Source: Candidatus Zixiibacteriota bacterium
GTDB lineage: Bacteria; Zixibacteria; MSB-5A5; SM23-73-2
Length of the DNA stretch: 64,000 nucleotides
Reading direction: 5' to 3'
Assembly: GCA_030615745.1 (NCBI GenBank)
Contig: JAUWYR010000004.1
Coordinates: 9,838 to 73,837 of the forward strand
Shown: in pieces, positions 12,218 through 57,081 of the stretch
How the letters are laid out: every line of letters starts with the position of its first letter
Numbering within the stretch: the stretch's first letter is position 1
The notes under the pieces: model-generated
Databases searched by the model: none
What the model saw: only the letters and a program-made list of their open reading frames with translations
Told to the model about the DNA's origin: nothing
Program-made: the position numbers and the translations under genes

Positions 12218-13363
12218 GTGGAATATGTGCTTAACTGGTGGATTTTAGCGGGTATAGTAATTGTTATTTTTGTTTTAATCCTTTTCTGGTTTGGTTCAAA
12301 AAGAAAAAAAGCCAAGCCAGCAGAAAAAATCTATATTGAAGGATTAAAAGCTTTGGTGTCTGGCGAGGACAGGATAGCTTTTCAAGAATTCAGGAAGGTT
12401 GTCGATTTAGATACGAATAACATCGATGCTTATCTTAAATTGGGGGACCTTTTCAGAAAAAGAAAAAGGTTTGATCGAGCGCTTCAGATTCACAAACAGC
12501 TCCTTTTGCGGCATAATCTCACTTTTGAATCAAAAAAGGAGATAAAAAAAGCTATAGCCTCTGATTACATAGAATCTAAAGACTACAACCAGGCTTGCGC
12601 TGTTTTGGAGGATTTGTTGAAATCAGATGAAAAGGACTTCTGGGTGCTCTCGAAACTTTTAGCTGAATATGAGGAAAAAGAGGATTGGGAGAAAGCTTTC
12701 TACTTAAGAGAAAAATTTTTCAAAGACAAAAAAGAGAAAAGTCAGAAAATCTTAGCGCTTTATAAGGTCTTTATGGGTAAGAAATTAGCCTCTGAAAAAG
12801 AGTTCCACAAAGCAAGGATCTCTTATAAGGAGGCTTTGCATAAAGATGTTGGCTGTGTTCCAGCCTTAATCTTTTTGGGCGATGCATACTATGAGGAGAA
12901 AAGGGTAGAGGAGGCGATTTCATCCTGGAAAAAGCTTTTGGAGATAGCGCCGAAGTCCTCTTATCTGGTTTTCGAAAAGCTCGAAAAAGCTTTATTCGAA
13001 TTGGGAAACTACGGGGAGATAGAGAAAATCTATGACCTGGTATTAAGAAACGACCCCCAGAACATACAGGCGCTTTTCGCATTATCAATTTTAGATGAGA
13101 AAAGAGGGAGAAAATCTCAGGCAGAACAGAAACACCTGCAGATTTTAGACTCAGACCCTGATTTTTTACCTTCAAGGCTCAGCTTGATAAAGATATATCA
13201 GGATAAAGGGGAAAAAACTAAAGCTAAGGAGATGGTCGATTCTTTGTTTGATGACTTTTTTACCCAATCTGAGAAATTTTTCTGCGAGAGGTGTGGATAT
13301 AGCTCAACTGAGCCTTTGTGGAGATGCCCTTCTTGTAAGGAGTGGAATAGCTTCGGGATTTAA
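12218..13363 (+). CDS. lapB: lipopolysaccharide assembly protein B (YciM; TPR + C-terminal rubredoxin-like zinc ribbon)
   Basis: N-terminal TM, TPR repeats, C-terminal CERCGYSSTEPLWRCPSCKEWNSF; GTG start with GGGAGG RBS. Confidence 0.8.
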   Translation: MEYVLNWWILAGIVIVIFVLILFWFGSKRKKAKPAEKIYIEGLKALVSGEDRIAFQEFRKVVDLDTNNIDAYLKLGDLFRKRKRFDRALQIHKQLLLRHNLTFESKKEIKKAIASDYIESKDYNQACAVLEDLLKSDEKDFWVLSKLLAEYEEKEDWEKAFYLREKFFKDKKEKSQKILALYKVFMGKKLASEKEFHKARISYKEALHKDVGCVPALIFLGDAYYEEKRVEEAISSWKKLLEIAPKSSYLVFEKLEKALFELGNYGEIEKIYDLVLRNDPQNIQALFALSILDEKRGRKSQAEQKHLQILDSDPDFLPSRLSLIKIYQDKGEKTKAKEMVDSLFDDFFTQSEKFFCERCGYSSTEPLWRCPSCKEWNSFGI

Positions 13364-13431: not shown

Positions 13432-16047
13432 ATGGAGAAGATAGGAACCCCATTGATGAATCAATATTGTAAAATAAAATCTCTGTATCCACAAGAGATT
13501 TTGTTTTTCAGAATGGGGGATTTCTATGAGATGTTCGGAGAGGACGCCAAGATCGCATCAAAGATTTTGGGTATAGCTTTAACTTCACGGGCACATGGAA
13601 AATCGGAAAAAGTTCCTTTAGCTGGTGTCCCTTATCATTCAGCTGAAAAATATATATCACAATTATTAAGGGCCGGAAAGAAAGTGGTTATCTGTGAGCA
13701 AACAGAGGACCCCAAAACCGCAAAAGGGATTGTTAAAAGAGAGGTGGTTGAGCTTATCACCCCGGGAACAATAACCATCGATAGCCTTTTTGACTCGGAT
13801 GAAAAAATTTTTTTAGCAAGCCTTACCTTTGATGAACAAAATGCTGGTCTGGCAGTTTTAGACCTTTCCACAGGCGAGTTCAAAGTTGAGGAGGATTCTT
13901 TTCAGAAAGTAGTGGAGAAAATAAACGCGATAAAGCCAAAGGAGATACTTCTGCCTCAAAGACTCTCTGAGAAAAAATCACTTGAGCTTGAAGATTTAAA
14001 AAATCAAGCGACCCTTACCTTTCTTGATGATTACAAGTTCAGCTATGATTATGCTTATCAAACCATCACCAGCCACTTCAAGACAGCATCTCTGGATGGC
14101 TTTGGGATCTCGGATTTAAACTTGGGAATCTCGTCTGCTGGAAGCATCCTTTCTTATCTTGAGCAGACCAAAAAGACTTTCCTTTTGCACATCAATAAGA
14201 TAACAAAGGCATCTTATGATGAGTGTATGTTTTTGGACTTCACCACCTTGAGAAATCTGGAGATATTTTCTCCTTTCAGCTCAACTGATTCAAAGGATTT
14301 TTCTTTTAAGAAAAATAGTCTATTCCACATTCTGAATAAGACCAAAACCGCGATGGGAGCAAGGCTTTTAAAGGAATGGTTGAAAGCTCCCCTTTATAAT
14401 GTGGAAAAGATAAAACAAAGGCAAAACTCAGTATCTGAGCTTTTGGAAAAAAGGGATAAAACGTTTGATCTTACAAAACTTTTAGACAAAATCCAGGATA
14501 TAGAGAGGCTTGCTGGAAAGCTCGGTTATGGTAAAGCCAATCCAAAAGACCTTGTCGCACTGGGTTTGTCTTTGAAAAATGTTCCGGAGATTAAAAATCT
14601 TTTAAAAGAGTTTAACTCCGCTCTTTTGAAAAACATAAAAGAAAAACTACCCGATACCTCTGAGATAGTCGATCTGATCCAATCCTCAATTGTGGATGAC
14701 CCTCCTTCGGTTTTAACTGAGGGTGGAATTATAAAAAAAGGATACAGCCAAAAGCTTGATGAGTTAAAAGAAAAGATAAAAACATCCAGGGATTGGATAG
14801 CCACCCTTCAACAGACCGAGAGGGAAAAAACAAAAATCCCTACACTTAAGGTTGGTTTTAACCGGGTGTTCGGATATTATATAGAGATCACCAAGCGCCA
14901 TCTTTCCAAGGTTCCAGAGGGGTATATACGAAAGCAGACTCTAATAAATGCTGAGAGATTTGTCACCGAGGAGTTGAAAAAAAGGGAAGAGATAATCTTA
15001 GGTGCTGAGGAGAAAATCTTTGAACTCGAGCATGATCTTTTTTTAGAGATAAGGTCTAAGGTTGCAAAAAAAATTAAGGATATTCAGAAAACCTCTGAAT
15101 ACTTAGCCACTTTAGATATCTTGTTAAGTTTTAAGGAGGTGGTTTTAAATTATCGTTATGTTCGTCCTGAAATCGATTTAAGTGATGATATAATAATCGA
15201 GGATGGGAGACATCCGATTCTTGAACATCTGCTCGAAAAAGGATTTGTTCCAAATGATACAATAATCAATTCAGACGAAAAGATTCACATCATAACCGGA
15301 CCGAATATGGCTGGAAAGTCAACCTATTTGAGGCAGGTTGGACTTATAGTGCTTTTGGCTCAAGTTGGCTGTTTTGTTCCAGCTAAGAAAGCAAAAGTAG
15401 GTCTGGTGGACAGAATATTCACCAGGGTGGGTGCCTTGGATAGTATCGCAACAGGCAAAAGCACATTTTTGGTGGAGATGAACGAAACAGCCAATATATT
15501 AAACAATGCCACCTCGAAAAGCTTAATCCTTTTGGATGAGATCGGTAAGGGAACATCAACTTTTGATGGGCTTTCCATTGCCTGGGCTACAACTGAGTAT
15601 ATCCACTATCATCCCAAGCTTTGTTCCAGGACTTTAGTTGCAACCCATTTCCACGAGTTAACTGAGTTAGCCAAACTTCTTCCAAAGGTAAGAAACTATC
15701 AGATAAAGGTTAAGGAATGGAAAGATGAGATAATATTTTTAAGAAAGATCGTCCCCGGAGGATGCGATGACTCATTCGGAATTTATGTGGCAAAATTAGC
15801 TGGAGTTCCAAAGGAGGTCCTGGAAAGGTCAAGGGAGATATTGTTGAAATTAGAAGGAGAGGAGCTTTCTTACAAGAGGGTTTCAAAACCAGGGGCTTTC
15901 TCGCAAAAAAAATCTTATCAGTTAAGTATTTTTTCAGCTAAGGATAACGAACTTGCTCAGGATTTGAAGAAAATTAATATAAATAAGTTGACACCTCTGG
16001 AGGCTTTGAATAAGTTGGAGGAGTTGAAGAGGAAAGCGGAAGAATAA
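13432..16047 (+). CDS. mutS: DNA mismatch repair protein MutS
   Basis: mismatch-binding N-term, Walker A GPNMAGKSTYLRQV, DEIGKGTSTFDGLSIAWA. Confidence 0.92.
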   Translation: MEKIGTPLMNQYCKIKSLYPQEILFFRMGDFYEMFGEDAKIASKILGIALTSRAHGKSEKVPLAGVPYHSAEKYISQLLRAGKKVVICEQTEDPKTAKGIVKREVVELITPGTITIDSLFDSDEKIFLASLTFDEQNAGLAVLDLSTGEFKVEEDSFQKVVEKINAIKPKEILLPQRLSEKKSLELEDLKNQATLTFLDDYKFSYDYAYQTITSHFKTASLDGFGISDLNLGISSAGSILSYLEQTKKTFLLHINKITKASYDECMFLDFTTLRNLEIFSPFSSTDSKDFSFKKNSLFHILNKTKTAMGARLLKEWLKAPLYNVEKIKQRQNSVSELLEKRDKTFDLTKLLDKIQDIERLAGKLGYGKANPKDLVALGLSLKNVPEIKNLLKEFNSALLKNIKEKLPDTSEIVDLIQSSIVDDPPSVLTEGGIIKKGYSQKLDELKEKIKTSRDWIATLQQTEREKTKIPTLKVGFNRVFGYYIEITKRHLSKVPEGYIRKQTLINAERFVTEELKKREEIILGAEEKIFELEHDLFLEIRSKVAKKIKDIQKTSEYLATLDILLSFKEVVLNYRYVRPEIDLSDDIIIEDGRHPILEHLLEKGFVPNDTIINSDEKIHIITGPNMAGKSTYLRQVGLIVLLAQVGCFVPAKKAKVGLVDRIFTRVGALDSIATGKSTFLVEMNETANILNNATSKSLILLDEIGKGTSTFDGLSIAWATTEYIHYHPKLCSRTLVATHFHELTELAKLLPKVRNYQIKVKEWKDEIIFLRKIVPGGCDDSFGIYVAKLAGVPKEVLERSREILLKLEGEELSYKRVSKPGAFSQKKSYQLSIFSAKDNELAQDLKKININKLTPLEALNKLEELKRKAEE

Positions 16048-16522: not shown

Positions 16523-16562
16523 CTTATCATATTACTCGCAGTTGACAGGAGGTTGGTTAAAA

Positions 16563-18287
16563 ATGGGGAATAAAAAACAAAAGCCTGCAAAAATCTTGTT
16601 GGATGTTCCTGTTGATGATGGGGTTTTAGGTTTTGATAATTATAGGGATGCTTTGATAAATATTATCAAAAGCTCCGAACCAAGGTTCACTATTGGAATC
16701 TTCGGTGGCTGGGGAACTGGGAAGACTACTTTGATGAAGATGATGAAGAAAAAGTTGGATGATGAGGGAGAGGCTACGGTTTGGTTTAATCCCTGGGAAT
16801 ATGAGAAAGAGGAGCATTTGATAATTCCATTATTGCAAACAATTAATTTTGAGCTTAAAGATAAGAAACTACTAAATCCTCAAACACTTAAAAAGTTTGG
16901 CAAAGCTATACTTGCTTTAACCTCTGGCTTTACCGCAAAAATACCGGTAATTGGAGTGGAACTTAGCCCTAAAGATGCTATAGAATCTTACCAGAAACTT
17001 TTCGAAAGTAAAAACCTTTCATCCCTTTATTTTGACCTTAAGCAACAGTTGAAGGATATCATTAAAGAACTTAAAGAAAAAGAGAAATCAAGAATGATAA
17101 TCTTTGTTGATGACCTCGATAGATGTTTACCAGATAGGGCACTTCAGGTGTTAGAATCAGTGAAATTATTTTTGGATGCAGAAGGTTATGTTTTTGTATT
17201 GGGTTTAGACCGCAGTATCATTGAAAAGTGTGTTAACAGAAAATATGGCGAAAACTCAGGAATTAGTGGGACTGACTATATAAAGAAGATGATTCAGGTT
17301 CCTTTTAATTTACCTGGATTAAGGGAGCAGGAAGTTAAGGCTTATGTTAAACGATTACGAGACGAGATAAAAGGGACAGACGTAGAGGTATATGTTGAAA
17401 AGTATATTGACATAATTTCTAAAGGAATGGAGGCGAATCCGAGGGAGATAAAAAGATTTATAAATAATTTCATTTTAATAAATCAAATAAGCGCAGGAGA
17501 AACAGAGCCCGATAAGTTATTAGTTTTGTTAATAATCCAGTTCAGATGGGAGGGATTTTACAATGCACTAGCTGAATATAAGACAGATTTTCTGGCTTCG
17601 GTACTAGCATATACGGAGGAAGATAGAGACGTAAAATCTGAGCAGGGAAGAAAACAATTCCTAGAGCACTGGGGATACTTAGAGTTATTAGAAAAGACCT
17701 TAGATGATGACTTAAACTCTTTTTTGAAGGGGGAAGGTAAAATCTTATTCGGAATCCAAGATTTAGACCCCTATATCCATTTTTCCAAAGCTGCAAAGAT
17801 ACCTGAAGCAGAAGTAAAAGCTCTTACAAAAGAAAAGTTAATTTCTTTATTAAGAAATGGAAGAATAGATGAGTTTAATAAAATTCGTCCACGCCCGACA
17901 GTAGATTTGGCAGGAGCTGATCTGAGCGGAACTCATTTAAGTGAAGCTAATCTGAGAGGAGCTAATCTGAGAGAAGCTAAGATGAGCGAATCTGATCTGC
18001 GCGGAGCCAATCTAGCGGAAGCAGATATAGGGAAAGCCCGCTTTTGGCGATCTAATCTAAGCGGAGCTGATTTAAATAGAATCATAATTGATGATTACAC
18101 TATTTTTTTCAAAACAATCATTGAGAATGTCAAGAATCTATCGGAAGAAATAAGAGAGACATTAGATATTGAAATAGAAGACGGTGTTGAAAAAGCTACA
18201 AGCAAAGGGCTTTTCGAGAAAAAGGCGAAGGAAGAAAAGGTAGAATCGTCGGATATGAAATCTGACGCTACGAAAGAAAAATCATAA
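16563..18287 (+). CDS. KAP-family P-loop NTPase fused to C-terminal pentapeptide repeats
   Basis: Walker A GIFGGWGTGKTTLMKMM, Walker B IIFVDDLDRC, KAP-type architecture; C-term AGADLSGTHLSEANLRGANLREAKMSESDLRGANLAEADIGKARFWRSNLSGADL; ATG 16563 with AGGAGG RBS preferred over TTG 16542. Confidence 0.8.
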   Translation: MGNKKQKPAKILLDVPVDDGVLGFDNYRDALINIIKSSEPRFTIGIFGGWGTGKTTLMKMMKKKLDDEGEATVWFNPWEYEKEEHLIIPLLQTINFELKDKKLLNPQTLKKFGKAILALTSGFTAKIPVIGVELSPKDAIESYQKLFESKNLSSLYFDLKQQLKDIIKELKEKEKSRMIIFVDDLDRCLPDRALQVLESVKLFLDAEGYVFVLGLDRSIIEKCVNRKYGENSGISGTDYIKKMIQVPFNLPGLREQEVKAYVKRLRDEIKGTDVEVYVEKYIDIISKGMEANPREIKRFINNFILINQISAGETEPDKLLVLLIIQFRWEGFYNALAEYKTDFLASVLAYTEEDRDVKSEQGRKQFLEHWGYLELLEKTLDDDLNSFLKGEGKILFGIQDLDPYIHFSKAAKIPEAEVKALTKEKLISLLRNGRIDEFNKIRPRPTVDLAGADLSGTHLSEANLRGANLREAKMSESDLRGANLAEADIGKARFWRSNLSGADLNRIIIDDYTIFFKTIIENVKNLSEEIRETLDIEIEDGVEKATSKGLFEKKAKEEKVESSDMKSDATKEKS

Positions 18288-18411: not shown

Positions 18412-18474
18412 GATTAAAATTTAATTCGTCATCATTCATCAATCATTCGTCATAATTTAAGGATGAAAAATAAG
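18412..18474 (+). repeat. 63-nt direct repeat, copy 2 (overlaps authentic mutL start)
   Basis: see 16460-16522. Confidence 0.8.
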
Positions 18475-20223
18475 ATCACCATACTTCCCCAAGATTTGGT
18501 TAACAAAATCGCTGCTGGTGAGGTGGTGGAGCGTCCGGCATCTGTTGTCAAGGAGCTGGTTGAGAATTCGATCGATGCTAAGGCTAAAAGTATTAAGGTG
18601 AAAATAAGATTCGGCGGGGTGAAATTAATAGAAGTTACAGATGATGGGGAAGGGATGAATCCTGAGGATGCGGAGCTTTCTTTAAAAAGACATGCGACAA
18701 GCAAGATAAAAGAAAAAGACGACCTTTATAATATAAAAACCTTAGGTTTCAGAGGGGAAGCTCTACCATCCATTGCCTCTGTTTGCTTTTTGGAACTTTT
18801 AACAAGACAAAAAGATGCACTTTCAGGAACTTTTCTAAGCTTAGAAGCAGGTATGATAAAACAAAAAAAAGAGATCGGCGCGCCTTGTGGAACATCTGTA
18901 ACTGTAAAAGAGCTTTTTTATAATACCCCTGCAAGGCTTAAGTTTTTAAAATCCAAACTCACTGAAACCAAACATATAATCGACCTTATACAGAATTATG
19001 CCTTAGCATATCCATCTCTATTATTTGAGCTCGAATCTGACCAGAGAACTCTTCTGAATTTACCAGCTTCAATTTTAAAACAGAGAATAGCTGACATCTG
19101 GGGAAATGATCTGAAATCAAAATTGGTAGAGATGGAAAAAGAAAGGTCCGACCCTGAGATTTTCGGATTTTTAGGAAAGCCTGAACTCACAAGGTCTAAT
19201 CGTTCTGAAATACGCATTTTCGTTAACAGAAGACCTGTGGTCTCAAGGGTCTTAAATCATGCTATACAATCGGGATATAGAGACCTTCTTCCACAGGGGA
19301 AATTTCCCTTTGCTTTTGCCTTTTTCGAGATAGACCCGGAAAAGATCGATGTGAACGTTCATCCAACAAAAAGGGAGATCAAATTCTCAAATGAACATCA
19401 AATCTACAATCTGCTATATTTGAAAGTGAAAAAGTCACTTAAGAGTTTTCAGACTATCCCTTCATACAATCTTTCATCTGAAAAATTGGTATCTGAAAAG
19501 TCCGAAAAAGCTAAAGTTGGAGAAAAAATAATTGATTATAGCACAAAAATGCAAAAACCCGACTTTATTCAGGAAAAGATAATTGATAAAATCTATCCTG
19601 CTGAAAAAAGGAAAGAAATTGAGCCAGAAGAAAAAACAACTTTTCAGAAAATTTGGCAAATCTTTGATCAATATATATTGGTCCAGAACGAAGATGAGTT
19701 ATGGATTATCGACCAGCACGCAGCACATGAGAGGATACTTTATGAAGAAATAAGTGAGAATATAGGCAAAAGTGGTCTATTATCACAAAAGCTGCTTTTT
19801 CCAGAGACACTTGAGCTCTCTCCAAAAGAGTTTTTGATCTACCGGGAAAATTCCGATATTTTACTAAAGTTAGGATTTGAGGTGGAGCTTTTCGGTAAGA
19901 ACAGCCTTTTAATTTCTGGGGTTCCATCTCTTTTAAAAAACCGGTCTGAAAAAAACTTTTTCTGTGAGCTTTTATCTGAGCTGGATGAAAATTTAAAAAA
20001 AGAAGGGGACAGGATAAAATCGGTTGCTAAAGCTTTTGCCTGTAAATCAGCGATAAAATCAGGCCTGAGGCTTTCTTATGAGGAGATAAAAACACTTTAC
20101 CAGAGTCTTTTATCAACAAAAAATCCCTTCAGTTGTCCTCATGGCAGACCAACCATTATAAAAATATCACTTGAAGAGCTCGATAAAAAGTTTATGCGAA
20201 GCATTCTTCGAAAAAGAACCTGA
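18463..20223 (+). CDS. mutL: DNA mismatch repair protein MutL
   Basis: GHKL ATPase N-term (AAGEVVERPASVVKELVENSIDA), GFRGEALPSIASV, C-terminal dimerisation domain. Confidence 0.92.
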   Translation: MKNKITILPQDLVNKIAAGEVVERPASVVKELVENSIDAKAKSIKVKIRFGGVKLIEVTDDGEGMNPEDAELSLKRHATSKIKEKDDLYNIKTLGFRGEALPSIASVCFLELLTRQKDALSGTFLSLEAGMIKQKKEIGAPCGTSVTVKELFYNTPARLKFLKSKLTETKHIIDLIQNYALAYPSLLFELESDQRTLLNLPASILKQRIADIWGNDLKSKLVEMEKERSDPEIFGFLGKPELTRSNRSEIRIFVNRRPVVSRVLNHAIQSGYRDLLPQGKFPFAFAFFEIDPEKIDVNVHPTKREIKFSNEHQIYNLLYLKVKKSLKSFQTIPSYNLSSEKLVSEKSEKAKVGEKIIDYSTKMQKPDFIQEKIIDKIYPAEKRKEIEPEEKTTFQKIWQIFDQYILVQNEDELWIIDQHAAHERILYEEISENIGKSGLLSQKLLFPETLELSPKEFLIYRENSDILLKLGFEVELFGKNSLLISGVPSLLKNRSEKNFFCELLSELDENLKKEGDRIKSVAKAFACKSAIKSGLRLSYEEIKTLYQSLLSTKNPFSCPHGRPTIIKISLEELDKKFMRSILRKRT

Positions 20224-49280: not shown

Positions 49281-49357
49281 CGGGGTGTAGCGCAGTCTGG
49301 TAGCGCACATGGTTTGGGACCATGGTGTCGGAGGTTCAAATCCTCTCACCCCGACCA
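49281..49357 (+). tRNA. tRNA-Pro (anticodon TGG), CCA encoded
   Basis: acceptor CGGGGTG/CACCCCG, D-arm GCGC-AGTCTGGTA-GCGC, anticodon arm CATGG-TTTGGGA-CCATG, T-arm GGAGG-TTCAAAT-CCTCT, ACCA. Confidence 0.85.
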
Positions 49358-49450
49358 GAGAAAGTTGGAAAACAGCAAACTGTTCACAGCTAACAGTAGA
49401 AAGTTTCGTAAAAACTGTGAACTGTTAACCGTTTACTGTGAACAGAAACT

Positions 49451-49524
49451 GCCCCCGTAGCTCAGTTGGATAGAGCATCTGCCTTCTAAGCAGAGGGTCG
49501 CCTGTTCGAGTCAGGCCGGGGGTA
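49451..49524 (+). tRNA. tRNA-Arg (anticodon TCT)
   Basis: acceptor GCCCCCG/CGGGGGT, anticodon arm TCTGC-CTTCTAA-GCAGA, T-arm GCCTG-TTCGAGT-CAGGC. Confidence 0.85.
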
Positions 49525-49615
49525 GCTGGAGTAAGTAAACAGAAAACAGTATACGGTAAACAGTAAAAGATTTTTTTCTGTATACTGTTTACTGTGAACT
49601 GTCTACTGACAACAC

Positions 49616-49693
49616 GGTGGGTGTAGCTCAGTTGGTTAGAGCACCAGGTTGTGGCCCTGGTGGTCGCGGGTTCAAGTCCCGTCATCCACCCCA
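49616..49693 (+). tRNA. tRNA-His (anticodon GTG) with encoded G-1 and CCA
   Basis: G-1 + acceptor GTGGGTG/CATCCAC, anticodon arm CCAGG-TTGTGGC-CCTGG, T-arm GCGGG-TTCAAGT-CCCGT, discriminator C, CCA. Confidence 0.85.
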
Positions 49694-50420
49694 TTTTTCA
49701 GTTTTGTTCCCTTCGGCTAATAAGTCGAAGGGCTTTCTGTATGTGGGATAAAGAGTTCCGTCAATTACTTGACAGTTCGAAAGTAGAAAATTGAGAAGTT
49801 TCCTTTTCTCTGGGGCTTCTTGCTTCTGATATAGAAAATACGCTTTGCTGGCGAGTTCTAAGATTTTGATTCCCTCATCGAAGTAGCTTTTATTGGCATT
49901 TTGATGACATTGAATTTCGGATAGTATTCTTGACTGCTCCTCTATCCATTGTTCTGATTTTCTGTTCCAGAATTCCTCTGTGATTTTACCTTCGAGTTTG
50001 TCCTCATAGGCTTGGTCAAGCTTTTGTTGAAGTTTTTTATGCCGTAAGGTGAGCTTGCCTATCATCTCATCGTGATATGCTTTCTCGTCAACGTGACTTG
50101 CTTTTAAGGCTTCTTTGATCCATTCCAGTTTTGCATCATCGATTACTATTTTTTTAACCACCTGACCAAGTTTGTCCTCAAGTAACTCTTCCCGGATATA
50201 TGCTTTCTCACATTTTCCCTTGGAACCGGTGCAGTGATAGTAGATGTATCTATTCTTCTGTATTTCTGCGGTGATGGAACAACCGCAGCGTCCACAGGTC
50301 AAAAGTCCAACAAAGGCGAAATTCCTCTTTTTCGGCTTGGGCTTATTGTGGTTTTTGAATACTTCCTGAACTTTTTCGAAAAGCTTTTTAGTTATGATCG
50401 GTGGATGCTTGCCTGAATAT
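49682..50420 (-). pseudogene. large serine recombinase, C-terminal fragment only (recombinase domain end + zinc beta-ribbon + coiled-coil); N-terminal catalytic domain missing
   Basis: zinc ribbon CGRCGCSITAEIQKNRYIYYHCTGSKGKCEK; open frame continues upstream to 50420 (...KPKPKKRNFAFVGLLTCGRCG) without ATG or resolvase catalytic domain; 3' end overlaps tRNA-His by 12 nt. Confidence 0.7.
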
Positions 50421-50608: not shown

Positions 50609-52261
50609 ATGAAGAAAAAACTTCTTGTCGTTCTTTTGTGTTTGACTTTCCTGCTTATCTTTCCGGGACTGGCAAAAGCTCAGTTCGGTTCGATTTCTGG
50701 GAAAGTAACAGATGAAGAGACTGGGTTTCCTATCATGGGAGCTCACGTTTGGGCAAGAGCAGATACTACCCAACCGGGGGGATATGGATTCGGTATAACC
50801 GATACTTTAGGATTGTATGTAATTGACAGTCTCGATGCTGGAGAATTTCTGGTCTCGTCTTCTGCCCTGGGATATGAAGACGAGAATTATCCTGAATCCG
50901 TGATTGTGGCAGCTGCTGAGAATACGCCAGATATCGATTTTGCTCTCACCCCTGCAGAAGCGACCGGTTCTATTTCCGGGATGGTTACAGATGGAGAAAC
51001 CGGTCTCCCACTTCCTATGGCTCACGTCTGTGCTTATGGTAGTACTCATGTCGAAGGGGATGCTTGGACGGACACTGCCGGATATTATCTCATACAGAAC
51101 CTTGTCGCTGGACAGTATATAGTAGGAGTTCATAAGAACGGATATGAAGATGAGGTCTATCCCGAATCGGTGACTGTTGAGGAGGGGCAGAATATACCTG
51201 ATATAGATTTCGCTTTGACCCCCATAGGTGAATATGGTTCAATTTCAGGTTGGGTAACAGACGAACAGACAGCACTCCCACTTCCCATGGCTCATGTCTG
51301 GGCATATGATAGCGTTGCTCGCTTCGGAGAGGATAGTTGGACCGATACAGCTGGATACTATCTCATACAAAACCTAACAGCTGGGCAGTATGCAGTTGGA
51401 GCTCATAAGAGTGGATACGAAATTGGGTTTTATCCGGAATTGGTTGCTGTTGAGGAGGGACAGAATACGCCTGATATAGATTTCGCTTTGACTCCAACAG
51501 GTGAGTACGGCTCAATTATAGGCTGGGTCGGTGATGAAGAGACCGGTCTCCCCATTATCATGGCTTACCTGAGAGCCATAGGTTTGGATGATGAAATTTG
51601 CGGGGAGGCTTGGAGCGATACCAGCGGTCAATACGGAATCTTAGATCTTCCCCCCGGGATTTACCGCGTCGTGGTCAGCAAAGATGGTTATGCTCCAGAA
51701 ACCTATCCTGATTCGGTAATTGTGGTTGCCGGGCAGAATACACCCCATATTGATTTTTCTCTGACTCCAATAGGTGAGTACGGATCAATTTCTGGGAGGG
51801 TTACCGATGAAGAGACTGGTCTTCCGATCAGCATGGCTTATCTTTTAGCCATAGGCTTGGATAACTGGTGTTATGCAGAGGCCTGGAGTGATACCAGCGG
51901 TTATTATACTATCCAATACCTGTGTACTGGCATTTACCAGGTCAACGTGCATGTAATAGGCTATATTCCAGAAAGCTATCCCGATTCAGTGATGGTGTTA
52001 GCTGGTGAAAATACCTCAGACATCGACTTTGCTCTTACATCTATTTATTTTGGTGATGTTACTGGAGATGGAAATATCAACCTTACTGACGCTATCTATC
52101 TGGCAAATTATTGTCTAAAAGCTGGTCCTGCTCCTGAACCTTTAGAAGCCGGAGAGGTCAACTGCGACGACGAAATAAATTTATCAGATGTGATATACTT
52201 GGCGAACTATTTGTTGAAAGGTGGACCCGCTCCACACCATTGCGGAAACTATCAATTTTAG
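50609..52261 (+). CDS. secreted protein: signal peptide, 5 x CarboxypepD_reg-like ~91-aa repeats, C-terminal dockerin (two EF-hand-like segments)
   Basis: repeats GSISGxVTDEETGLPxxMAHVWA...GYEDExYPESVxV..GQNxPDIDFALTP; dockerin GDVTGDGNINLTDAIYLANYCLK / VNCDDEINLSDVIYLANYLLKGG. Confidence 0.75.
   Translation: MKKKLLVVLLCLTFLLIFPGLAKAQFGSISGKVTDEETGFPIMGAHVWARADTTQPGGYGFGITDTLGLYVIDSLDAGEFLVSSSALGYEDENYPESVIVAAAENTPDIDFALTPAEATGSISGMVTDGETGLPLPMAHVCAYGSTHVEGDAWTDTAGYYLIQNLVAGQYIVGVHKNGYEDEVYPESVTVEEGQNIPDIDFALTPIGEYGSISGWVTDEQTALPLPMAHVWAYDSVARFGEDSWTDTAGYYLIQNLTAGQYAVGAHKSGYEIGFYPELVAVEEGQNTPDIDFALTPTGEYGSIIGWVGDEETGLPIIMAYLRAIGLDDEICGEAWSDTSGQYGILDLPPGIYRVVVSKDGYAPETYPDSVIVVAGQNTPHIDFSLTPIGEYGSISGRVTDEETGLPISMAYLLAIGLDNWCYAEAWSDTSGYYTIQYLCTGIYQVNVHVIGYIPESYPDSVMVLAGENTSDIDFALTSIYFGDVTGDGNINLTDAIYLANYCLKAGPAPEPLEAGEVNCDDEINLSDVIYLANYLLKGGPAPHHCGNYQF
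50684..52043 (+). repeat. intragenic ~273-nt tandem repeats x5
   Basis: near-identical DNA blocks e.g. GAGGAGGGGCAGAATA(C)CCTGATATAGATTTCGCTTTGACCCC at 51180 and 51455. Confidence 0.6.
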
Positions 52262-52881
52262 CTTTGGGGAAGTTTTGATCAATTACCAATGCTGTGAAAA
52301 GGTTTTAAAGATTAAGCAATCATAAAAAGCCTTTAGATTTTTGTTGAATTTTACACGCACAAGGGTTCCCTTATTCAAAAAGAAAGGGGCAGGGGGTGGA
52401 CATACCCCCTCCGACGATTGAGATTATATAGATTCCAACAGCTGAGAAGTATCAGGTATCTGTTCTTCTGTTGTTGCCAAATAAGTTCTAAGACCGTCCA
52501 CTACTCCACCCTTTGTTTTAATTGAACTCAGATTTTTGTGTATTTTTATGGATTATTAAATTGCTACACCGCACCCTTTGATCCTTAGAGAAAAAAATAT
52601 AGGCAAAGTCCTCTTCAAAAAACTTTTCAAGCCGACCATCTCATTTCTCTTGAAAAAATGTCTTGATTTATATTCTTTAGTAGGGATCGAGCAAAGTTTA
52701 GCTAAAACGTAACCAAGACTTTTTCTGGATTTTTTCATAATCTTTGATTATCTATGCAACAATTCATCTAAACTCAGAGTATATAGAATTTAAAGCGGAA
52801 TGATCTCCATTCTGCGCAAGACTTGAACTCGATAAAAAGAGGTATTTTGTGGAAAAGCACTAAAAGCCTAAAGGAGCTGTT

Positions 52882-53775
52882 ATGAAAAAGTATTTTGTAT
52901 TTTTAGTGATATTTTTAATCATCAATGTTCATAATTCCTTGGCTTCTTATTTAAATATCACTTTTCGGGGTATTGGTTTAAGTATAGGAAATTCAAAGAA
53001 AGCGAATGGAATACGTTTGAATTTTGTTGATAATGAGGTTGAAAAAATAAATGGTCTCAACTTAACGTTATGGAAGCCAAAAGATAACTCAGATGCTATA
53101 ATGAATGGTTTTGCCTTGGGAGTAATAGGACCAGAAGTCAAGGATATAAACGGTCTTGCCTTGGGTGGAGTTGGAGTGGTCACAGAAAAGATGAATGGTG
53201 TTTCTTTTGGGTTAATTGGAGTTACGTCCACGGAAATAAATGGAATAACAATTGGAGGTATCGGGGTGGCAAATGATAACTTAAAGGGAATAGCAATCGG
53301 AGGGATCGGAGTGGCAAATCAAGACGTCAATGGAATAACAGTTGGTGGTGTCGGGGTAGCAAACCAGAACTTAAATGGAATAGCGATAGGTGGTATTGGT
53401 GTGGCAAATCAAGATGTGGATGGGATAGCAATAGGAGGGATCGGAGTGGCAAATCAAGACCTGAATGGGATAGCCATCGGTGGTATTGGGGTAGGTAGCC
53501 AGAATGTAAATGGAATAGTAATCGGAGGGGTAGGGGTAGGGGCACAGGACATAACAGGTTTTGTATTCGGAGGAGTACATGTGAAGTCTAATAGTTTAAC
53601 TGGCTTAGGAATAGGAGGATACTGCAAGCTAAAAGAAAACCTGAATGGCGTTTCTATTGGAATATTTAATTATACCAGACATCTTGAGGGTGTGCAAATC
53701 GGTATTCTTAATTACTGTGGAAACAACCCGAAGCCTTTGAGATTATTGCCGATTATCAATGTGCATATTGATTGA
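52882..53775 (+). CDS. secreted protein built of 14-aa repeats (NGIAIGGIGVANQD)n; unknown family
   Basis: signal peptide; >=12 consecutive 14-aa units, 7 nearly perfect; C-terminal GVQIGILNY motif. Confidence 0.65.
   Translation: MKKYFVFLVIFLIINVHNSLASYLNITFRGIGLSIGNSKKANGIRLNFVDNEVEKINGLNLTLWKPKDNSDAIMNGFALGVIGPEVKDINGLALGGVGVVTEKMNGVSFGLIGVTSTEINGITIGGIGVANDNLKGIAIGGIGVANQDVNGITVGGVGVANQNLNGIAIGGIGVANQDVDGIAIGGIGVANQDLNGIAIGGIGVGSQNVNGIVIGGVGVGAQDITGFVFGGVHVKSNSLTGLGIGGYCKLKENLNGVSIGIFNYTRHLEGVQIGILNYCGNNPKPLRLLPIINVHID
53245..53548 (+). repeat. 42-nt perfect-period tandem repeat x7
   Basis: AATGGAATAGCAATCGGAGGGATCGGAGTGGCAAATCAAGAC-type units in register. Confidence 0.75.
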
Positions 53776-53851
53776 AGGCGTGGATTTCACCTTGTTATAA
53801 TAGACAATATTAGATAGCCACTGTCTATTCAAAACCCTAACTTTAATTAGT

Positions 53852-53881
53852 TGTGTCAGGAGCTTTACTCCTGACACAACC
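53852..53881. other. hairpin TTGTGTCAGGAGCTTTACTCCTGACACAAC, repeated downstream of both island genes
   Basis: related copy GGTGTCAGGACTGAGAGATCCTGACACAAC at 55968-55997. Confidence 0.45.
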
Positions 53882-54197
53882 CAAAAATGGAGTGTAATCA
53901 TTTATGATTGCAGGGATACCGTTTTGGTGGGATGCATTCCTTTCTTTCGTTTGTCAGCATTAGGAAATCCCGACGACAACCAGCCTTAGTAATTCCTATA
54001 CTCAAGGCATCAAAAAGTTCCTTAAAATTTTGAGGGGTTGATGTTCGGTTCCGATTCCCAATTCAAATGAATATTAATATTGACTTTTAGAAAGAACCAA
54101 TTATACTTAGCCTAATCAAGAAGGTGGCTTTAGCTTTGAATAATGTGGTTTTCTCAGTTGGTTTTATATTTAACTTAAATTTCTTTGGAGGTAAGTT

Positions 54198-55808
54198 TTG
54201 CCTAAAATTAAGTCAAGACCTCGATATAGAAAGGCACTAACACCTGCACTCATTATTTGTTTTATAATCGCGGTAATCCTGATTATAGTTTTCAATAAAG
54301 CTTTTTTTCAACCGGTATTTAAAAGAGAGGTTACTATTAAACCTGAGTATCTTGAAAATGAAAGTGAGGAATTGTGGGTTTCCAGATATAACGGACCAGC
54401 AGATGGTAATGATTGGGCTAAGGCTCTGGTGGTGGATGGGTTCGGCAATATCTACGTGACTGGAGAAAGCGAAGGTAAGACCACAGGTAAGGATGTTGCC
54501 ACCATAAAGTACAATGGAAAAGGAGATACCTTATGGGTAAAAAGATACAATGGACCCGTAAATGGCGACGATTGGGGTGCTTTCTTAGCCATAGATGAAT
54601 CTGGAAACGTCTATCTGGCTGGGGGAAGCGAAGGAGAGGGGACAGGTCTTGATTATCTCACCATAAAATATACCCCTTCCGGAGAGGTTATCTGGATGAA
54701 AAGGTATAATGGTTCTGGAAACTCATCTGACAGAGCTTCAGCTTTGGCCATAGACGACTCCGGAAACGTTTACCTTACCGGCGAAAGCGAGGGGGAAGGC
54801 TCAGGCTTTGACTATGCCACTTTGAAGTATGACAAAAATGGTGAGGTTGTTTGGGTCAGAAGATATAATGGGTCTGAAAACGGAAATGACTGCGCTTATG
54901 CTTTAGCTGTTGACGCTTATGGCAATGTTTACCTGACCGGTTACAGCTATGGGGGGTCAACGAGATCCGACTATCTTACCTTAAAATATAATACTTCGGG
55001 TGATCTCCTGTGGGTTAAAAGATTCGATGGATCCCAAAACTCTGTTGACAGAGCTTATGCTTTAGCTGTGGGTATCTCCGGAGATGTATATGTAACCGGA
55101 TATAGTCATGGAGACCAAACAGACAAAAACATTCTTACGATAAAGTACAATTCTTACGGAAAGCTACTCTGGGCGAAAAGATACAATGGATCGGCCAATG
55201 GATTGGACCGGACTCATGCCTTAACTTTGGACAGCTCTGGTAATGTCTATGTAGCTGGACAGAGCCACGGTGTGGTTACCGGCTCTGATTTTGTTACTAT
55301 TAAATATAATCCTTCAGGCGATACTCTCTGGGTGAGAATATACGAAGGTCCTGGAAACCACAACGATTGGGATTTAGCTCATGCTATGGCAGTAGATGAT
55401 TTTGGCAGCATCTATGTTACCGGCGAGAGTCAGGGGACCGGAACAGATCACGACTACGCCACGATAAAGTACGATCTCTCTGGTAATCTCCTCTGGGTTA
55501 GAAGATATAATCAGCCCTCTATTGATAATGCTTTTGCCTTAGCTGTAGATCCCTCTGGTAACGTCTATGTGACCGGATTCAGCTACGGCCCCGGGACCAC
55601 TTCTGATTATGCCACTATCAAATATGGGCAGTTTATAAGAGGAGATGTCAATGGAGATAAAACGATAGATTTAGCTGATGCAATCTACTTAGCAAACTAT
55701 TTACTTAAAGGCGGAGGCCAACCACCTGTCCCGATTTCTCGAGCTAATGCCAACGGGGATGATGCTGTCAACCTATTGGATGTGATACACATAGTGAGCT
55801 ATTATTAG
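54198..55808 (+). CDS. secreted SBBP (beta-propeller) repeat protein with C-terminal dockerin
   Basis: N-terminal TM/signal; ~9 repeats YNGxxNGxDxAxALAVDxSGNVYVTGxSxGxxTGxDYxTIKY; dockerin GDVNGDKTIDLADAIYLANYLLKGG / ANANGDDAVNLLDVIHIV. Confidence 0.75.
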   Translation: MPKIKSRPRYRKALTPALIICFIIAVILIIVFNKAFFQPVFKREVTIKPEYLENESEELWVSRYNGPADGNDWAKALVVDGFGNIYVTGESEGKTTGKDVATIKYNGKGDTLWVKRYNGPVNGDDWGAFLAIDESGNVYLAGGSEGEGTGLDYLTIKYTPSGEVIWMKRYNGSGNSSDRASALAIDDSGNVYLTGESEGEGSGFDYATLKYDKNGEVVWVRRYNGSENGNDCAYALAVDAYGNVYLTGYSYGGSTRSDYLTLKYNTSGDLLWVKRFDGSQNSVDRAYALAVGISGDVYVTGYSHGDQTDKNILTIKYNSYGKLLWAKRYNGSANGLDRTHALTLDSSGNVYVAGQSHGVVTGSDFVTIKYNPSGDTLWVRIYEGPGNHNDWDLAHAMAVDDFGSIYVTGESQGTGTDHDYATIKYDLSGNLLWVRRYNQPSIDNAFALAVDPSGNVYVTGFSYGPGTTSDYATIKYGQFIRGDVNGDKTIDLADAIYLANYLLKGGGQPPVPISRANANGDDAVNLLDVIHIVSYY

Positions 55809-55866
55809 AGAGTAAACGTTAAACGGAAAATAGAAAACAGTTAAAGATGAAAGAAATCCAATTGTT

Positions 55867-55900
55867 GGTGCAGGGGTTTAACCCCTGCACCAGCTTTTGT
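55867..55900 (+). terminator. rho-independent terminator GGTGCAGGGGTTTAACCCCTGCACC + AGCTTTTGTG
   Basis: 10-bp GC-rich stem, T-run; 60 nt after dockerin-protein stop. Confidence 0.45.
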
Positions 55901-56046
55901 GACCATACTCGAACAACTCTTTGCAAATTTCAAACAGTTGCGTCAAAAGCTTTTCTCCTGACGCTTAAAAAGGTGTCAGGACTGAGAGATCCTGACACAA
56001 CACAAAATCATCCAAAGAACCCACCCTTATTAATTTTTCTTGTGTT

Positions 56047-56090
56047 TTCTCTGTTGGTCTTAAGACCAACAGAGAACTAAAATTTTTTAA
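56047..56090. terminator. 14-bp palindrome TTCTCTGTTGGTCTTAAGACCAACAGAGAA + AAATTTTTT at the convergent +/- gene boundary
   Basis: sits between last + gene cluster and stop of pitA (-); plausible bidirectional terminator. Confidence 0.35.
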
Positions 56091-56091
56091 C

Positions 56092-57081
56092 TCACGAAAA
56101 CAATTTTACAAGAAAGTAAAGAAAAGCGGCTATTGCTCCTGAGGCCGGGATGGTGATGACCCAGGCAACCACAATATTTTTAACTATCCCCCATCTCACC
56201 GCGGATAGCTTTTGAGAGGAGCCCGAGCCCATAATCGCTGTTGAGATCACATGGGTTGTGCTGATAGGAATTCCGAACCAGGATATTCCAGCGATAACCG
56301 TTGCTGCAGATGTTTCAGCTGAGAACCCATGAACTGGTTGGAGTTTGAACACTTTTGTTCCCATGGTCTTGATCACCTTCCACCCACCCAAACTGGTTCC
56401 TAAAGCCATGGCAAACGCACATGCTATCATAACCCAGAGTGGAACCTTAAATGCGTCTAGTGCTCCATAGCTTACCAAAGCCATAGTTATGATACCCATA
56501 GCGTTCTGAGCATCATTCATCCCGTGAGAAAAGGACATCCAGGCAGCGGATAATATCTGAAATTTTTTGAAATAATTGTTGACCTTTCTTGGATTCGACC
56601 TTTGGAAAAGCCATGATATAACAACGATCAATAAAATCCCTCCTAAAAACCCAAAAACAGGAGAAAGAATCATCGCAATTGCAATTTTTTTAATTCCACC
56701 TATCATTATAATTTTAAACCCTGCCTCAACGATGCCTACGCCTAAAAGTCCTCCTATTAAAGAATGGGTAACACTGACGGGAATACCGGAAAAGCTTGCA
56801 AGACCGGTCCAGAAACTGGCACCTAACAATGCCACTAAGACCATAACCAGATTCACATAAGAGGGATCAATCACCCCCTTCCCTATTGTAGCAGCAACTG
56901 CAGTATGGGATAAAGCACCAAAAAAATTCAAAGCCCTTGCCATGAAAATTGCACTTCGTGGGGAAAGCGCTTTGGTGGAAATGGTTGTGGCTATGGCATT
57001 AGCACAATCATTAAAACCATTAAAGAAATCGTAGACTAACGCCGCAAAGATTATAGCTAAAAGTAAAACAAACTCAGGCAC
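56092..57081 (-). CDS. pitA: inorganic phosphate transporter (PiT/PHO4 family)
   Basis: 10-12 TM, duplicated GANDxxN-like motifs (GFNDCANA; GMNDAQNA). Confidence 0.88.
   Translation of the reverse strand: MPEFVLLLAIIFAALVYDFFNGFNDCANAIATTISTKALSPRSAIFMARALNFFGALSHTAVAATIGKGVIDPSYVNLVMVLVALLGASFWTGLASFSGIPVSVTHSLIGGLLGVGIVEAGFKIIMIGGIKKIAIAMILSPVFGFLGGILLIVVISWLFQRSNPRKVNNYFKKFQILSAAWMSFSHGMNDAQNAMGIITMALVSYGALDAFKVPLWVMIACAFAMALGTSLGGWKVIKTMGTKVFKLQPVHGFSAETSAATVIAGISWFGIPISTTHVISTAIMGSGSSQKLSAVRWGIVKNIVVAWVITIPASGAIAAFLYFLVKLFS

What the first reader, a model, noticed from the sequence alone, without database searches (positions are those of the whole stretch)
50609..55808. Non-cellulosomal dockerin module on two adjacent secreted repeat proteins (CarboxypepD_reg x5 and SBBP beta-propeller), with a novel 14-aa repeat protein between them
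Both flanking genes end in a canonical duplicated dockerin segment (GDxxGDGxINxxDxIYLANYLLKGG). One follows five near-identical CarboxypepD_reg-like domains, the other nine SBBP beta-propeller blades. Neither is a glycoside hydrolase, and no cohesin-bearing scaffoldin is visible in the window. Dockerins imply a cognate cohesin partner, so this may be a surface-display or adhesin assembly system of unknown purpose. It sits in an island next to a degraded recombinase. The middle gene (52882-53775) is a signal-peptide protein made of a perfectly periodic 42-nt unit (NGIAIGGIGVANQD). I cannot assign it to a known family. It would be predicted to form a regular beta-solenoid/fibre.
Basis: partly seen in the sequence, partly recalled or inferred. 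Interest (0 to 1): 0.62.

Follow-up and report, generated by a model that had tools for sequence, protein, structure and literature searches.

The report
Dockerin-tagged surface proteins in a Zixibacteria island
Two exported, non-enzymatic repeat proteins of an uncultured Zixibacteria bacterium carry genuine dockerin tags, and an unrelated beta-solenoid gene lies between them by chance in a strain-specific region, so this is an ordinary new example of the already known use of dockerins outside cellulosomes.

Summary
The three genes exist as described. Gene 1 has five CarboxypepD_reg domains and gene 3 is an SBBP propeller. Both end in modules that pass Pfam's Dockerin_1 threshold and match almost only type-I dockerins in the PDB. 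Three details are wrong. The middle repeat is 15 aa (45 nt), not 14. The propeller has 8 units, not 9. The five domains are 47-76% identical, not near-identical.

The window is from Zixibacteria (LeuRS). It holds no cohesin, even with an HMM built for the divergent cohesin that accompanies this dockerin subtype elsewhere. That cohesin does occur in Zixibacteria, for example a Coh-Coh-Doc protein in MAG SM1_73.

The middle protein is not an orphan. It belongs to a family of at least 566 proteins, distantly related to NCBIfam VC2662/LA_2272. Its model is a confident beta-solenoid (pLDDT 95). Its neighbours differ in about 90 related loci, so the trio is not a conserved module.

The segment starts 5 nt after tRNA-His, where homology to the closest relative ends, and holds a 3' remnant of a large serine integrase.

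Verdict: a new member of a known kind, of low to moderate interest.

The parts
49281..49693 (+). tRNA-Pro(TGG), tRNA-Arg(TCT) and tRNA-His(GTG) cluster. The 3' end of tRNA-His (49693) is the left edge of the genome-specific segment.
   Evidence: ARAGORN and Rfam. DNA homology to the closest relative L096 ends at 49698.
49682..50419 (-). 3' remnant of a large serine integrase. It keeps the end of the recombinase domain, the Zn ribbon and the coiled coil. The catalytic resolvase domain is missing.
   Evidence: Pfam Zn_ribbon_recom at 34.6 bits. In-frame translation shows the truncation. It matches the C-terminal domain of phage A118 integrase, 6dnw/4kis, and has weak phage hits.
50495..50522 (+). 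Promoter-like site (TTGACA-16-TATATT, 11 of 12) upstream of gene 1.
   Evidence: Consensus scan only. The total number of sites found is not above the shuffled expectation.
50609..52261 (+). Gene 1, 550 aa. Signal peptide (aa 1-24, ...LAKA/Q), five CarboxypepD_reg (transthyretin-like) domains starting at aa 27, 120, 210, 301 and 392, and a type-I-like dockerin at aa 480-547.
   Evidence: The signal peptide is inferred from the sequence.
52046..52249 (+). Gene 1 dockerin module. Ca loop 1 is DVTGDGNINLTD and loop 2 is EVNCDDEINLSD, each followed by a helix of the form D[AV]IYLANY.LK.G.
   Evidence: Pfam 33.7 bits. PDB dockerin hits at E 1e-6. Subtype HMM 101 bits.
52882..53775 (+). Gene 2, 297 aa. 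Signal peptide, then about 17 units of 15 aa (consensus NGIAIGGIGVANQD[LV]), then the conserved C-terminal motif GVQIGILNY..NNPK.LR.LP.IN. It is a predicted beta-solenoid of the VC2662/LA_2272 superfamily.
   Evidence: period. (family). (AF2 pLDDT 95.1). (fold class).
53853..53877 (.). Palindromic hairpin GTGTCAGGA-loop-TCCTGACAC, 78 nt after the gene 2 stop codon.
   Evidence: It occurs only twice in the window, both times in this segment.
54198..55808 (+). Gene 3, 536 aa, TTG start with a GGAGG Shine-Dalgarno motif. N-terminal hydrophobic helix at aa 14-36 (signal anchor or uncleaved signal), eight 53-aa SBBP propeller units at aa ~58-478, and a dockerin at aa 480-536 with a shortened last helix.
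55635..55805 (+). Gene 3 dockerin module. Loop 1 is DVNGDKTIDLAD and loop 2 is NANGDDAVNLLD. It is 54% identical to the gene 1 dockerin.
55864..55894 (+). Intrinsic-terminator-like hairpin (14-bp stem, 9 GC pairs, T tract) after gene 3.
55973..55998 (.). Second copy of the GTGTCAGGA...TCCTGACAC palindrome. It overlaps a terminator-like site for the convergent minus-strand gene.

Best explanation
The segment holds three separately transcribed genes for exported proteins. They lie together in a strain-specific variable region of a Zixibacteria chromosome. That region begins at the 3' end of tRNA-His and still carries the dead 3' end of a large serine integrase.

Genes 1 and 3 encode non-catalytic binding or spacer proteins: five transthyretin-like beta-sandwiches in gene 1, and an eight-unit SBBP propeller in gene 3. 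Each ends in a type-I-like dockerin, made of two EF-hand-like Ca2+ loops each followed by a helix.

Inferred mechanism: after Sec export, each dockerin folds around Ca2+ and docks onto a divergent cohesin module. That cohesin is carried by proteins encoded elsewhere in the genome. This would recruit the two proteins into a cell-envelope-associated, non-cellulolytic multiprotein assembly. By the company this dockerin keeps elsewhere (peptidases, propellers, Ig-like modules), the assembly would serve adhesion and/or proteolysis.

Gene 2 is unrelated to that system. It encodes a Sec-exported rod of about 17 beta-solenoid coils from a widespread, uncharacterised family that is probably envelope or surface associated.

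Shown here: the domain identities, the fold class, the taxonomy, the absence of a cohesin in the window, the presence of a cohesin in the lineage, the lack of conserved synteny, and the left island boundary. Inferred: actual cohesin binding, Ca2+ dependence, cellular location and biological role.
For: Dockerin identity:
- Pfam is above the gathering score for both proteins.
- PDB matches are almost all dockerins and cover both segments.

Subtype census:
- 16,418 cluster representatives at E<=1e-3.
- 59 of 59 sampled carriers pass Dockerin_1. Their partner domains are peptidases S8/M14/M23, FG-GAP, SBBP, CarboxypepD_reg and Ig-like modules, with almost no CAZymes.

A partner exists in the lineage:
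- The ~155-aa module next to these dockerins passes Pfam Cohesin in P0178 (34.1 bits) and P0203 (24.4 bits).
- Its profile hits only cohesin chains in the PDB, at E 4e-6 to 5e-4.
- It is present in 43 of the 150 top carriers.
- P0203's cluster includes PKK82857.1 from a Zixibacteria MAG.
- Zixibacteria SM1_73 encodes signal peptide-Coh-Coh-Doc.

Other points:
- Taxonomy: the best named LeuRS hits are all Zixibacteria at 63-72% identity.
- Independence of gene 2.
- Island.
- Published analogue: dockerin-tagged peptidases plus a cohesin scaffoldin in Cloacimonadota MAGs (PMC8542988).
Against: - No cohesin is in the 64-kb window, and the rest of this genome could not be examined. The cognate partner is therefore unproven for this organism.
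- Gene 3's second helix is truncated.
- Loop position 3 in gene 1 segment 1 is Thr and loop position 1 in segment 2 is Glu. Both are non-canonical.
- How Sec-exported proteins of a presumed diderm would reach the cell surface is unknown. No T9SS CTD was detected.
- To my knowledge, many genomes carry dockerins without recognisable cohesins (Peer et al. 2009, which I could not read here).
- Pfam is blind to much of this cohesin subtype, so its distribution is poorly known.
Confidence: 0.6

Rival explanations
1. Orphan dockerins. The C-terminal modules are Ca2+-binding dockerin folds that do not bind a cohesin in this organism. Instead they stabilise the protein or bind another envelope component, such as a polysaccharide or an S-layer.
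For: No cohesin is in the window. Gene 3's dockerin is truncated. Gene 1's loops have non-canonical residues. Only 29% of the top carriers contain the cohesin-like module.
Against: The same dockerin subtype is repeatedly fused to a bona fide cohesin homologue, including in Zixibacteria. The two window dockerins keep the helix sequence D[AV]IYLANYLLKGG almost unchanged, with 68% identity between gene 1 segment 2 and gene 3 segment 1. That conservation suggests a shared ligand surface.
Confidence: 0.2
2. Three-gene assembly unit. The beta-solenoid forms a fibre or scaffold and the two flanking dockerin proteins attach to it, making a dedicated surface-display cassette.
For: The genes are adjacent and on the same strand. 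All three are exported. All three lie inside the same genome-specific segment.
Against: None of about 90 loci with a relative of gene 2 has a gene-1-like or gene-3-like neighbour, and only 3 have any dockerin gene nearby. The family is common in Gemmatimonadota, Aminicenantes and Ignavibacteria loci that have no dockerin genes. The solenoid has no similarity to cohesin. Intergenic gaps are 620 and 422 nt, with a hairpin after gene 2.
Confidence: 0.07
3. The C-terminal modules are secretion or sorting signals analogous to T9SS C-terminal domains, not interaction modules.
For: They sit at the extreme C-terminus, as T9SS CTDs do. Zixibacteria belong to the FCB group. Por_Secre_tail proteins occur near family members in related loci.
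Against: There is no Por_Secre_tail, CHU_C or other CTD hit at E<=0.1. The sequence and PDB matches are almost all dockerins. In other proteins the same module also occurs just after the signal peptide, internally, and in up to 12 tandem copies. That distribution is incompatible with a C-terminal sorting signal.
Confidence: 0.04

Closest known systems
Non-cellulosomal dockerin/cohesin proteins (Peer et al. 2009 survey; Archaeoglobus fulgidus cohesin-dockerin pair; Ca. Stygibacter, Cloacimonadota, PMC8542988)
   Same: Signal-peptide proteins without CAZyme domains end in a type-I-like dockerin. Cohesins are present in the lineage on separate or adaptor-type proteins. Peptidases are prominent among the cargo.
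   Different: The phylum here is Zixibacteria; the paper search found no paper holding both 'Zixibacteria' and 'dockerin'. The two cargo proteins are purely non-catalytic repeat proteins. The lineage's cohesins are so divergent that Pfam misses most of them. They typically occur in a Doc-Coh cassette rather than as tandem cohesins on a CBM-bearing scaffoldin.
Clostridial and ruminococcal cellulosome type-I dockerins (e.g. 1OHZ, 2CCL, 4FL4, 1DAQ)
   Same: Duplicated 22-residue segment, 12-residue Ca loop with D/N at positions 1, 3, 5, 9 and 12, followed by a helix. R. flavefaciens also attaches dockerins to peptidases, LRR proteins and many modules of unknown function (PMC2930009).
   Different: There is no glycoside hydrolase, CBM or scaffoldin context. 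The helix and linker motif (YLANYLLKGGPAP) is subtype-specific. The organism is presumably a Gram-negative diderm.
NCBIfam VC2662 family (NF047437) and LA_2272 surface repeat family (NF047436)
   Same: Gene 2 and 51 of 53 of its relatives hit VC2662_fam, and 45 of 53 hit LA_2272_repeat. They share Gly-rich ~15-aa repeats and the C-terminal G.Q.G..N motif. LA2272 was threaded onto pertactin in 2008 and predicted to be an outer-membrane protein (PMC2387172, PMC5348505). VC2662 was detected in V. cholerae proteomes (PMC10865864).
   Different: The window protein scores 35.8 bits against a cutoff of 140, so it is a distant homologue and not a member. It is longer (297 aa, about 17 coils, against a 187-position model) and has no lipobox.
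Beta-solenoid surface proteins: YadA/UspA1 heads, pertactin and Ag43 passengers, curli CsgA, TPS adhesins such as EtpA
   Different: Sequence identity is <=12% and Foldseek finds nothing significant (best E 0.9). There is no autotransporter barrel, TPS domain, Hep_Hag or Curlin Pfam hit. The coil is 15 residues long in perfect register.

Membership tests
Dockerin type I (PF00404) | Profile score above Pfam's gathering threshold (22.9 bits) | tested here: met
   Gene 1 scores 33.7 bits and gene 3 scores 32.9 bits.
Dockerin type I (PF00404) | Two tandem ~22-residue segments, each a 12-residue Ca2+ loop (D/N at positions 1, 3, 5, 9, 12) followed by an alpha-helix | tested here: met
   All four loops are present and align to solved dockerins. 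Deviations: Thr at position 3 in gene 1 loop 1, Glu at position 1 in gene 1 loop 2, and gene 3's last helix cut to 8 residues.
Dockerin type I (PF00404) | Ca2+-dependent binding to a cognate cohesin | not testable with these tools
   This needs biochemistry or complex prediction. No multimer tool was available.
Cohesin-dockerin system (organism level) | A cohesin-bearing protein encoded in the same genome | tested here: inconclusive
   None is in the 64-kb window by Pfam or by the subtype cohesin HMM on six frames. The rest of the genome is unavailable. A cohesin is present in related Zixibacteria.
Cellulosome | Dockerins borne by glycoside hydrolases or other CAZymes, and a CBM-bearing scaffoldin | tested here: not met
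   Genes 1 and 3 have no CAZyme or CBM domain. There is no scaffoldin in the window.
T9SS C-terminal sorting domain (Por_Secre_tail and related) | Profile match to a CTD family at the C-terminus | tested here: not met
   No such Pfam or NCBIfam hit at E<=0.1 in any of the three proteins.
SBBP beta-propeller (PF06739) | Multiple SBBP repeats above threshold | tested here: met
   134.6 bits and 8 stretches. Eight 53-aa units by three motifs. The 3D model was too poor to confirm the blade count (pLDDT 45).
CarboxypepD_reg (PF13620) | Profile match above threshold | tested here: met
   211.9 bits and 5 stretches.
NCBIfam VC2662 family (NF047437, equivalog) | Whole-protein score of at least 140 bits | tested here: not met
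   35.8 bits, E 5e-9. The protein is homologous but not a member.
NCBIfam LA_2272/LA_2273 lipoprotein (NF047435) | Score of at least 30 bits and a lipoprotein signal peptide | tested here: not met
   18.1 bits. No lipobox cysteine is in the signal peptide (sequence).
Trimeric autotransporter head / curli / classical autotransporter passenger | Hep_Hag or Curlin_rpt repeats, or a C-terminal membrane-anchor or barrel domain | tested here: not met
   No Pfam hit. The resemblance is at fold-class level only.
tRNA-associated genomic island | Begins at the 3' end of a tRNA gene and is absent from a close relative | tested here: met
   Homology to L096 (LeuRS 86% identical) ends at 49698, 5 nt after tRNA-His.
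tRNA-associated genomic island | Intact integrase and flanking direct repeats (attL/attR) | tested here: not met
   Only a 3' remnant of the integrase is left. There is no second copy of the tRNA-His 3' end in the window. The right boundary is undefined.

The most novel reading that the evidence does not exclude
Zixibacteria and other uncultured, mostly FCB-type lineages may run a non-cellulolytic cohesin-dockerin network. It would be built from a stereotyped Doc-Coh cassette, in which a dockerin is followed directly by a divergent, largely Pfam-invisible cohesin, with a further C-terminal dockerin. Such a cassette could polymerise head-to-tail into a protein mesh on the envelope. The two window proteins would be terminal cargo of that mesh. 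This would be a distinct architectural variant of cohesin-dockerin assembly, serving adhesion or proteolysis rather than plant cell-wall degradation.
Probability: 0.25. Interest if true: 0.6.

Novelty: new member of a known kind. Interest (0 to 1): 0.3.

Why it matters
The finding itself adds one more example of dockerins outside cellulosomes. The follow-up gave three more useful results.
- This dockerin subtype is very common in metagenomes (more than 16,000 representative clusters) and is attached mainly to peptidases, propellers and Ig-like modules.
- Its cohesin partner is divergent enough that standard Pfam annotation misses most copies. Genome surveys that report "dockerins without cohesins" in candidate phyla may therefore be under-calling cohesins.
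- A widespread 15-residue-repeat beta-solenoid family (VC2662/LA_2272 superfamily) still has no known function, although members occur in the cultured genera Vibrio, Leptospira and Melioribacter, where it could be studied.

None of this changes a major concept.

Tried and rejected
- A word-indexed homology search with the 73-aa dockerin returned one hit and was uninformative. The exhaustive HMMER search replaced it.
It was redone with 8 sequences.
- The afdb50 fold library was unavailable.
- The single-sequence AF2 model of gene 3 was poor (pLDDT 44.8) and was not used for the blade count or the dockerin fold.
- The neighbourhood census of 81 family loci found no conserved partner gene. Apparent recurrent neighbours were unrelated genes or spurious high-GC ORFs.
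- The search for an attR copy of the tRNA-His 3' end was negative.
- Rfam found only the three tRNAs.
- Context look-ups for gene 1 and for the nearest dockerin relatives P0221 and P0222 found no record.
- Peer et al. 2009 is not held in the library, so statements about it rest on citing papers and my own knowledge.
- The idea that the solenoid is a YadA-like or curli-like adhesin family member was rejected. There is no profile hit, no anchor domain and sequence identity is <=12%.

Full report
**1. What is in the sequence**

Each is preceded by a GGAGG or AGGAG ribosome-binding motif.

Pfam finds five CarboxypepD_reg stretches (E 1e-63) in gene 1, plus Dockerin_1 at 33.7 bits at aa 482-536. 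In gene 3 it finds eight SBBP stretches (E 1e-39), plus Dockerin_1 at 32.9 bits at aa 482-529. The Dockerin_1 gathering score is 22.9.

The three proteins have no T9SS C-terminal-domain hit in Pfam or NCBIfam at E<=0.1.

Searched alone against all PDB sequences, the two C-terminal modules match almost only type-I dockerins: 4FL4, 1DAQ, 5NRM, 2MTE, 2CCL, 1OHZ and others. The best E-values are 1e-6 and 3e-5. The alignments span both Ca-loop/helix segments.

The four Ca loops read DVTGDGNINLTD, EVNCDDEINLSD, DVNGDKTIDLAD and NANGDDAVNLLD. They keep the D/N pattern at positions 1, 3, 5, 9 and 12, apart from one Thr at position 3 and one Glu at position 1.

Gene 3's protein stops eight residues into its last helix, and Pfam covers profile positions 2-49 of 57. 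An independent Logan contig encodes the same protein, so this is not an assembly artefact of the window.

The two dockerins are 54% identical to each other.

**2. Corrections to the observation**

- The middle gene's repeat is 45 nt = 15 aa, not 42 nt/14 aa. TRF and the repeat finder both give period 45. Self-identity peaks at lags 15 and 30 (35% and 34%) against 8% at lag 14. About 17 units, from aa 30 to 284, stay in one register without a single indel.
- Gene 3 has eight 53-aa units, not nine. Three independent motifs each occur exactly eight times.
- Gene 1's five domains are 47-76% identical pairwise, so they are not "near-identical".

**3. Organism and genomic setting**

The window's leucyl-tRNA synthetase has unnamed relatives at 98% and 86% identity. 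Its best named hits are all Zixibacteria, at 63-72% identity. The closest relatives of gene 2 in GTDB genomes are also Zixibacteria MAGs: SM23_73_3, SM23_73_2 and SM1_73, at 51-62% identity.

All other large ORFs in the window that got a Pfam hit encode housekeeping proteins.

The trio follows a tRNA-Pro/Arg/His cluster. It also follows a minus-strand ORF with only a Zn_ribbon_recom domain. Translation shows this ORF is the 3' part of a large serine integrase. It keeps the end of the recombinase domain, the zinc ribbon and the coiled coil, but has no catalytic domain. It matches the C-terminal domain of the phage A118 integrase.

In the closest available relative (L096, LeuRS 86% identical), gene order is conserved from PNPase to the Ham1-like gene and the tRNAs. 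DNA homology ends at window position 49698, five bases after tRNA-His. Beyond that point L096 carries unrelated genes.

No second copy of the tRNA-His 3' end exists in the window, so the right boundary is undefined. GC content is 0.41-0.44 here against 0.34-0.38 in the flanks, but similar values occur elsewhere in the window.

The "island next to a degraded recombinase" is therefore supported, as a decayed integration or variable site.

**4. Is there a cohesin partner?**

The window has no Pfam cohesin.

To learn what accompanies this dockerin subtype elsewhere, I searched the 73-aa gene 1 module exhaustively. There are 16,418 cluster representatives at E<=1e-3 and 3,106 at E<=1e-10.

I sampled 59 carriers, and all of them pass Dockerin_1. 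Their other domains are peptidases (S8, M14, M23), FG-GAP, SBBP, CarboxypepD_reg, TSP3 and Ig-like modules, with hardly any CAZymes. Seven carry Pfam Cohesin.

A ~155-aa module recurs right after dockerins in these proteins.
- It passes the Cohesin gathering score in P0178 (34.1 bits) and P0203 (24.4 bits). It is marginal in P0154 and undetected in clear BLAST relatives.
- An HMM built from it finds it in 20 of the 59 sampled carriers and in 43 of the 150 top carriers.
- A profile of it hits only cohesin chains in the PDB: 4DH2_A at 3.9e-6, 2XDH_A at 8e-6 and 4UYP_A at 5e-4.

It is therefore a genuine but divergent cohesin.

P0203's 90% cluster includes PKK82857.1 from a Zixibacteria MAG. Its architecture is M14 peptidase-MAM-Doc-Coh-Doc. 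Zixibacteria SM1_73 encodes a protein with a signal peptide, two such cohesins and a dockerin. Pfam reports nothing for this protein.

With this tailored HMM, the six-frame translation of the window still contains no cohesin, and dockerins occur only in genes 1 and 3.

So a partner exists in the lineage but is not encoded locally. Its presence in this genome could not be tested.

**5. The middle protein**

The middle protein has no Pfam domain. It does have at least 566 homologues at E<=1e-3. All are unnamed or "hypothetical", and most are 300-400 aa.

A single conserved motif recovered 131 relatives among GTDB species genomes. They span Zixibacteria, KSB1, Calditrichia, many Gemmatimonadales, Krumholzibacteriia, Aminicenantes, Ignavibacteria/Melioribacter and Bacteroidota.

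NCBIfam links the family to two named but uncharacterised families:
- 51 of 53 members hit VC2662_fam and 45 of 53 hit LA_2272_repeat.
- The window protein scores only 35.8 bits against a cutoff of 140.

What is published about those families:
- VC2662 is an uncharacterised V. cholerae protein. It was enriched in a delta-ompU proteome, and its deletion gave no phenotype in that background (PMC10865864).
- LA2272 was predicted to be an outer-membrane protein and was threaded onto pertactin (PMC5348505 and PMC2387172).

- YdcK;
- pertactin;
- EtpA;
- a Ca-dependent antifreeze protein.

Sequence identity to these is <=12%. Foldseek finds nothing significant.

**6. Are the three genes one system?**

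Contexts of three homologues differ and contain no dockerin genes.

Outside the window I fetched 94 loci, about 90 of which carry a relative of gene 2. One of them (L001) is the window's own sequence. Among the rest, a dockerin gene lies nearby in only three (L016, L048, L089). None has a relative of the gene 1 or gene 3 core next to the solenoid gene. No neighbouring gene family is consistently associated.

Within the window the genes are 620 and 422 nt apart. Promoter-like sites lie before genes 1 and 3, a hairpin follows gene 2, and a strong terminator-like hairpin follows gene 3.

The juxtaposition therefore looks incidental: three exported-protein genes gathered in a variable region.

**7. 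Mechanism and rivals**

Most likely (about 0.6): genes 1 and 3 encode non-catalytic cargo that docks, through Ca2+-loaded dockerins, onto cohesin-bearing proteins encoded elsewhere. This would resemble the cellulosome-like peptidase and glycosidase complex inferred for Cloacimonadota (PMC8542988). Gene 2 encodes an unrelated exported solenoid rod.

Rivals:
- Orphan dockerins with another ligand (about 0.2).
- A true three-gene fibre-plus-cargo cassette (about 0.07).
- A sorting signal (about 0.04).

**8. Novelty**

Dockerins outside cellulosomes, on peptidases and on modules of unknown function, are established knowledge. Sources are Peer et al. 2009 as cited in PMC8542988 and PMC2930009, and R. 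flavefaciens in PMC2930009.

No paper in the library mentions both Zixibacteria and dockerin. This is therefore a new member of a known kind. The Doc-Coh cassette and the Pfam-invisible cohesin are the more interesting by-products.

Noticed in passing
window 53853-53877 and 55973-55998: A palindrome with the same stem (GTGTCAGGA...TCCTGACAC) but different loops occurs exactly twice in the 64-kb window, downstream of genes 2 and 3. It occurs in no other fetched locus except L001, the window's own Logan copy. It may be a small REP-like element or a shared terminator.
   Followed up: partly
window ~55800-56100: Cumulative GC skew peaks here. All large ORFs to the left are on the + strand, apart from three minus-strand ORFs nested inside + strand genes, and all to the right are on the minus strand. 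The island sits at a convergence point that could be the replication terminus. No dif site was looked for.
   Followed up: no
P0154, P0178, P0229, P0242 and 39 other proteins; L016:1288-2517 (minus strand): There is a stereotyped architecture in which a dockerin is followed directly by a divergent ~155-aa cohesin, with another dockerin at the C-terminus (43 of 150 top hits). Pfam misses most of these cohesins. It also misses both the cohesins and the dockerin of the Zixibacteria SM1_73 protein.
   Followed up: partly
P0122-P0140: Some proteins consist largely of tandem dockerins. My subtype HMM counts up to 12 modules per protein, and Pfam reports 8 Dockerin_1 stretches in the 720-aa P0122. 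Their role is unknown.
   Followed up: no
L004 6869-12480 (Ca. Hatepunaea meridiana): Here the solenoid-family gene is inserted between an ABC ATPase gene and ABC2_membrane / ABC_transp_aux (GldG-like) / DUF4340 genes. This is a single case and does not recur in the census.
   Followed up: no
window 16542-18287: A KAP-family P-loop NTPase fused to pentapeptide repeats lies between mutS (13432-16047) and mutL (18463-20223).
   Followed up: no
window 52046-52249 (gene 1 dockerin): Gene 1's dockerin has a Cys in the second Ca loop (NCD) and another after the GGPAP tail, which may form a disulfide clasp. Across 510 modules of this subtype, 14% have the loop Cys and 42% have the tail Cys. Gene 3 has neither.
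   Followed up: partly
L096 ~12346-12422: The relative's sequence aligns through the tRNA-His region, but ARAGORN did not call a tRNA-His there. The copy may be diverged or defective.
   Followed up: no
window 55847-56080: This 77-aa ORF overlaps both terminator-like hairpins between the convergent genes and is probably not a gene.
   Followed up: no
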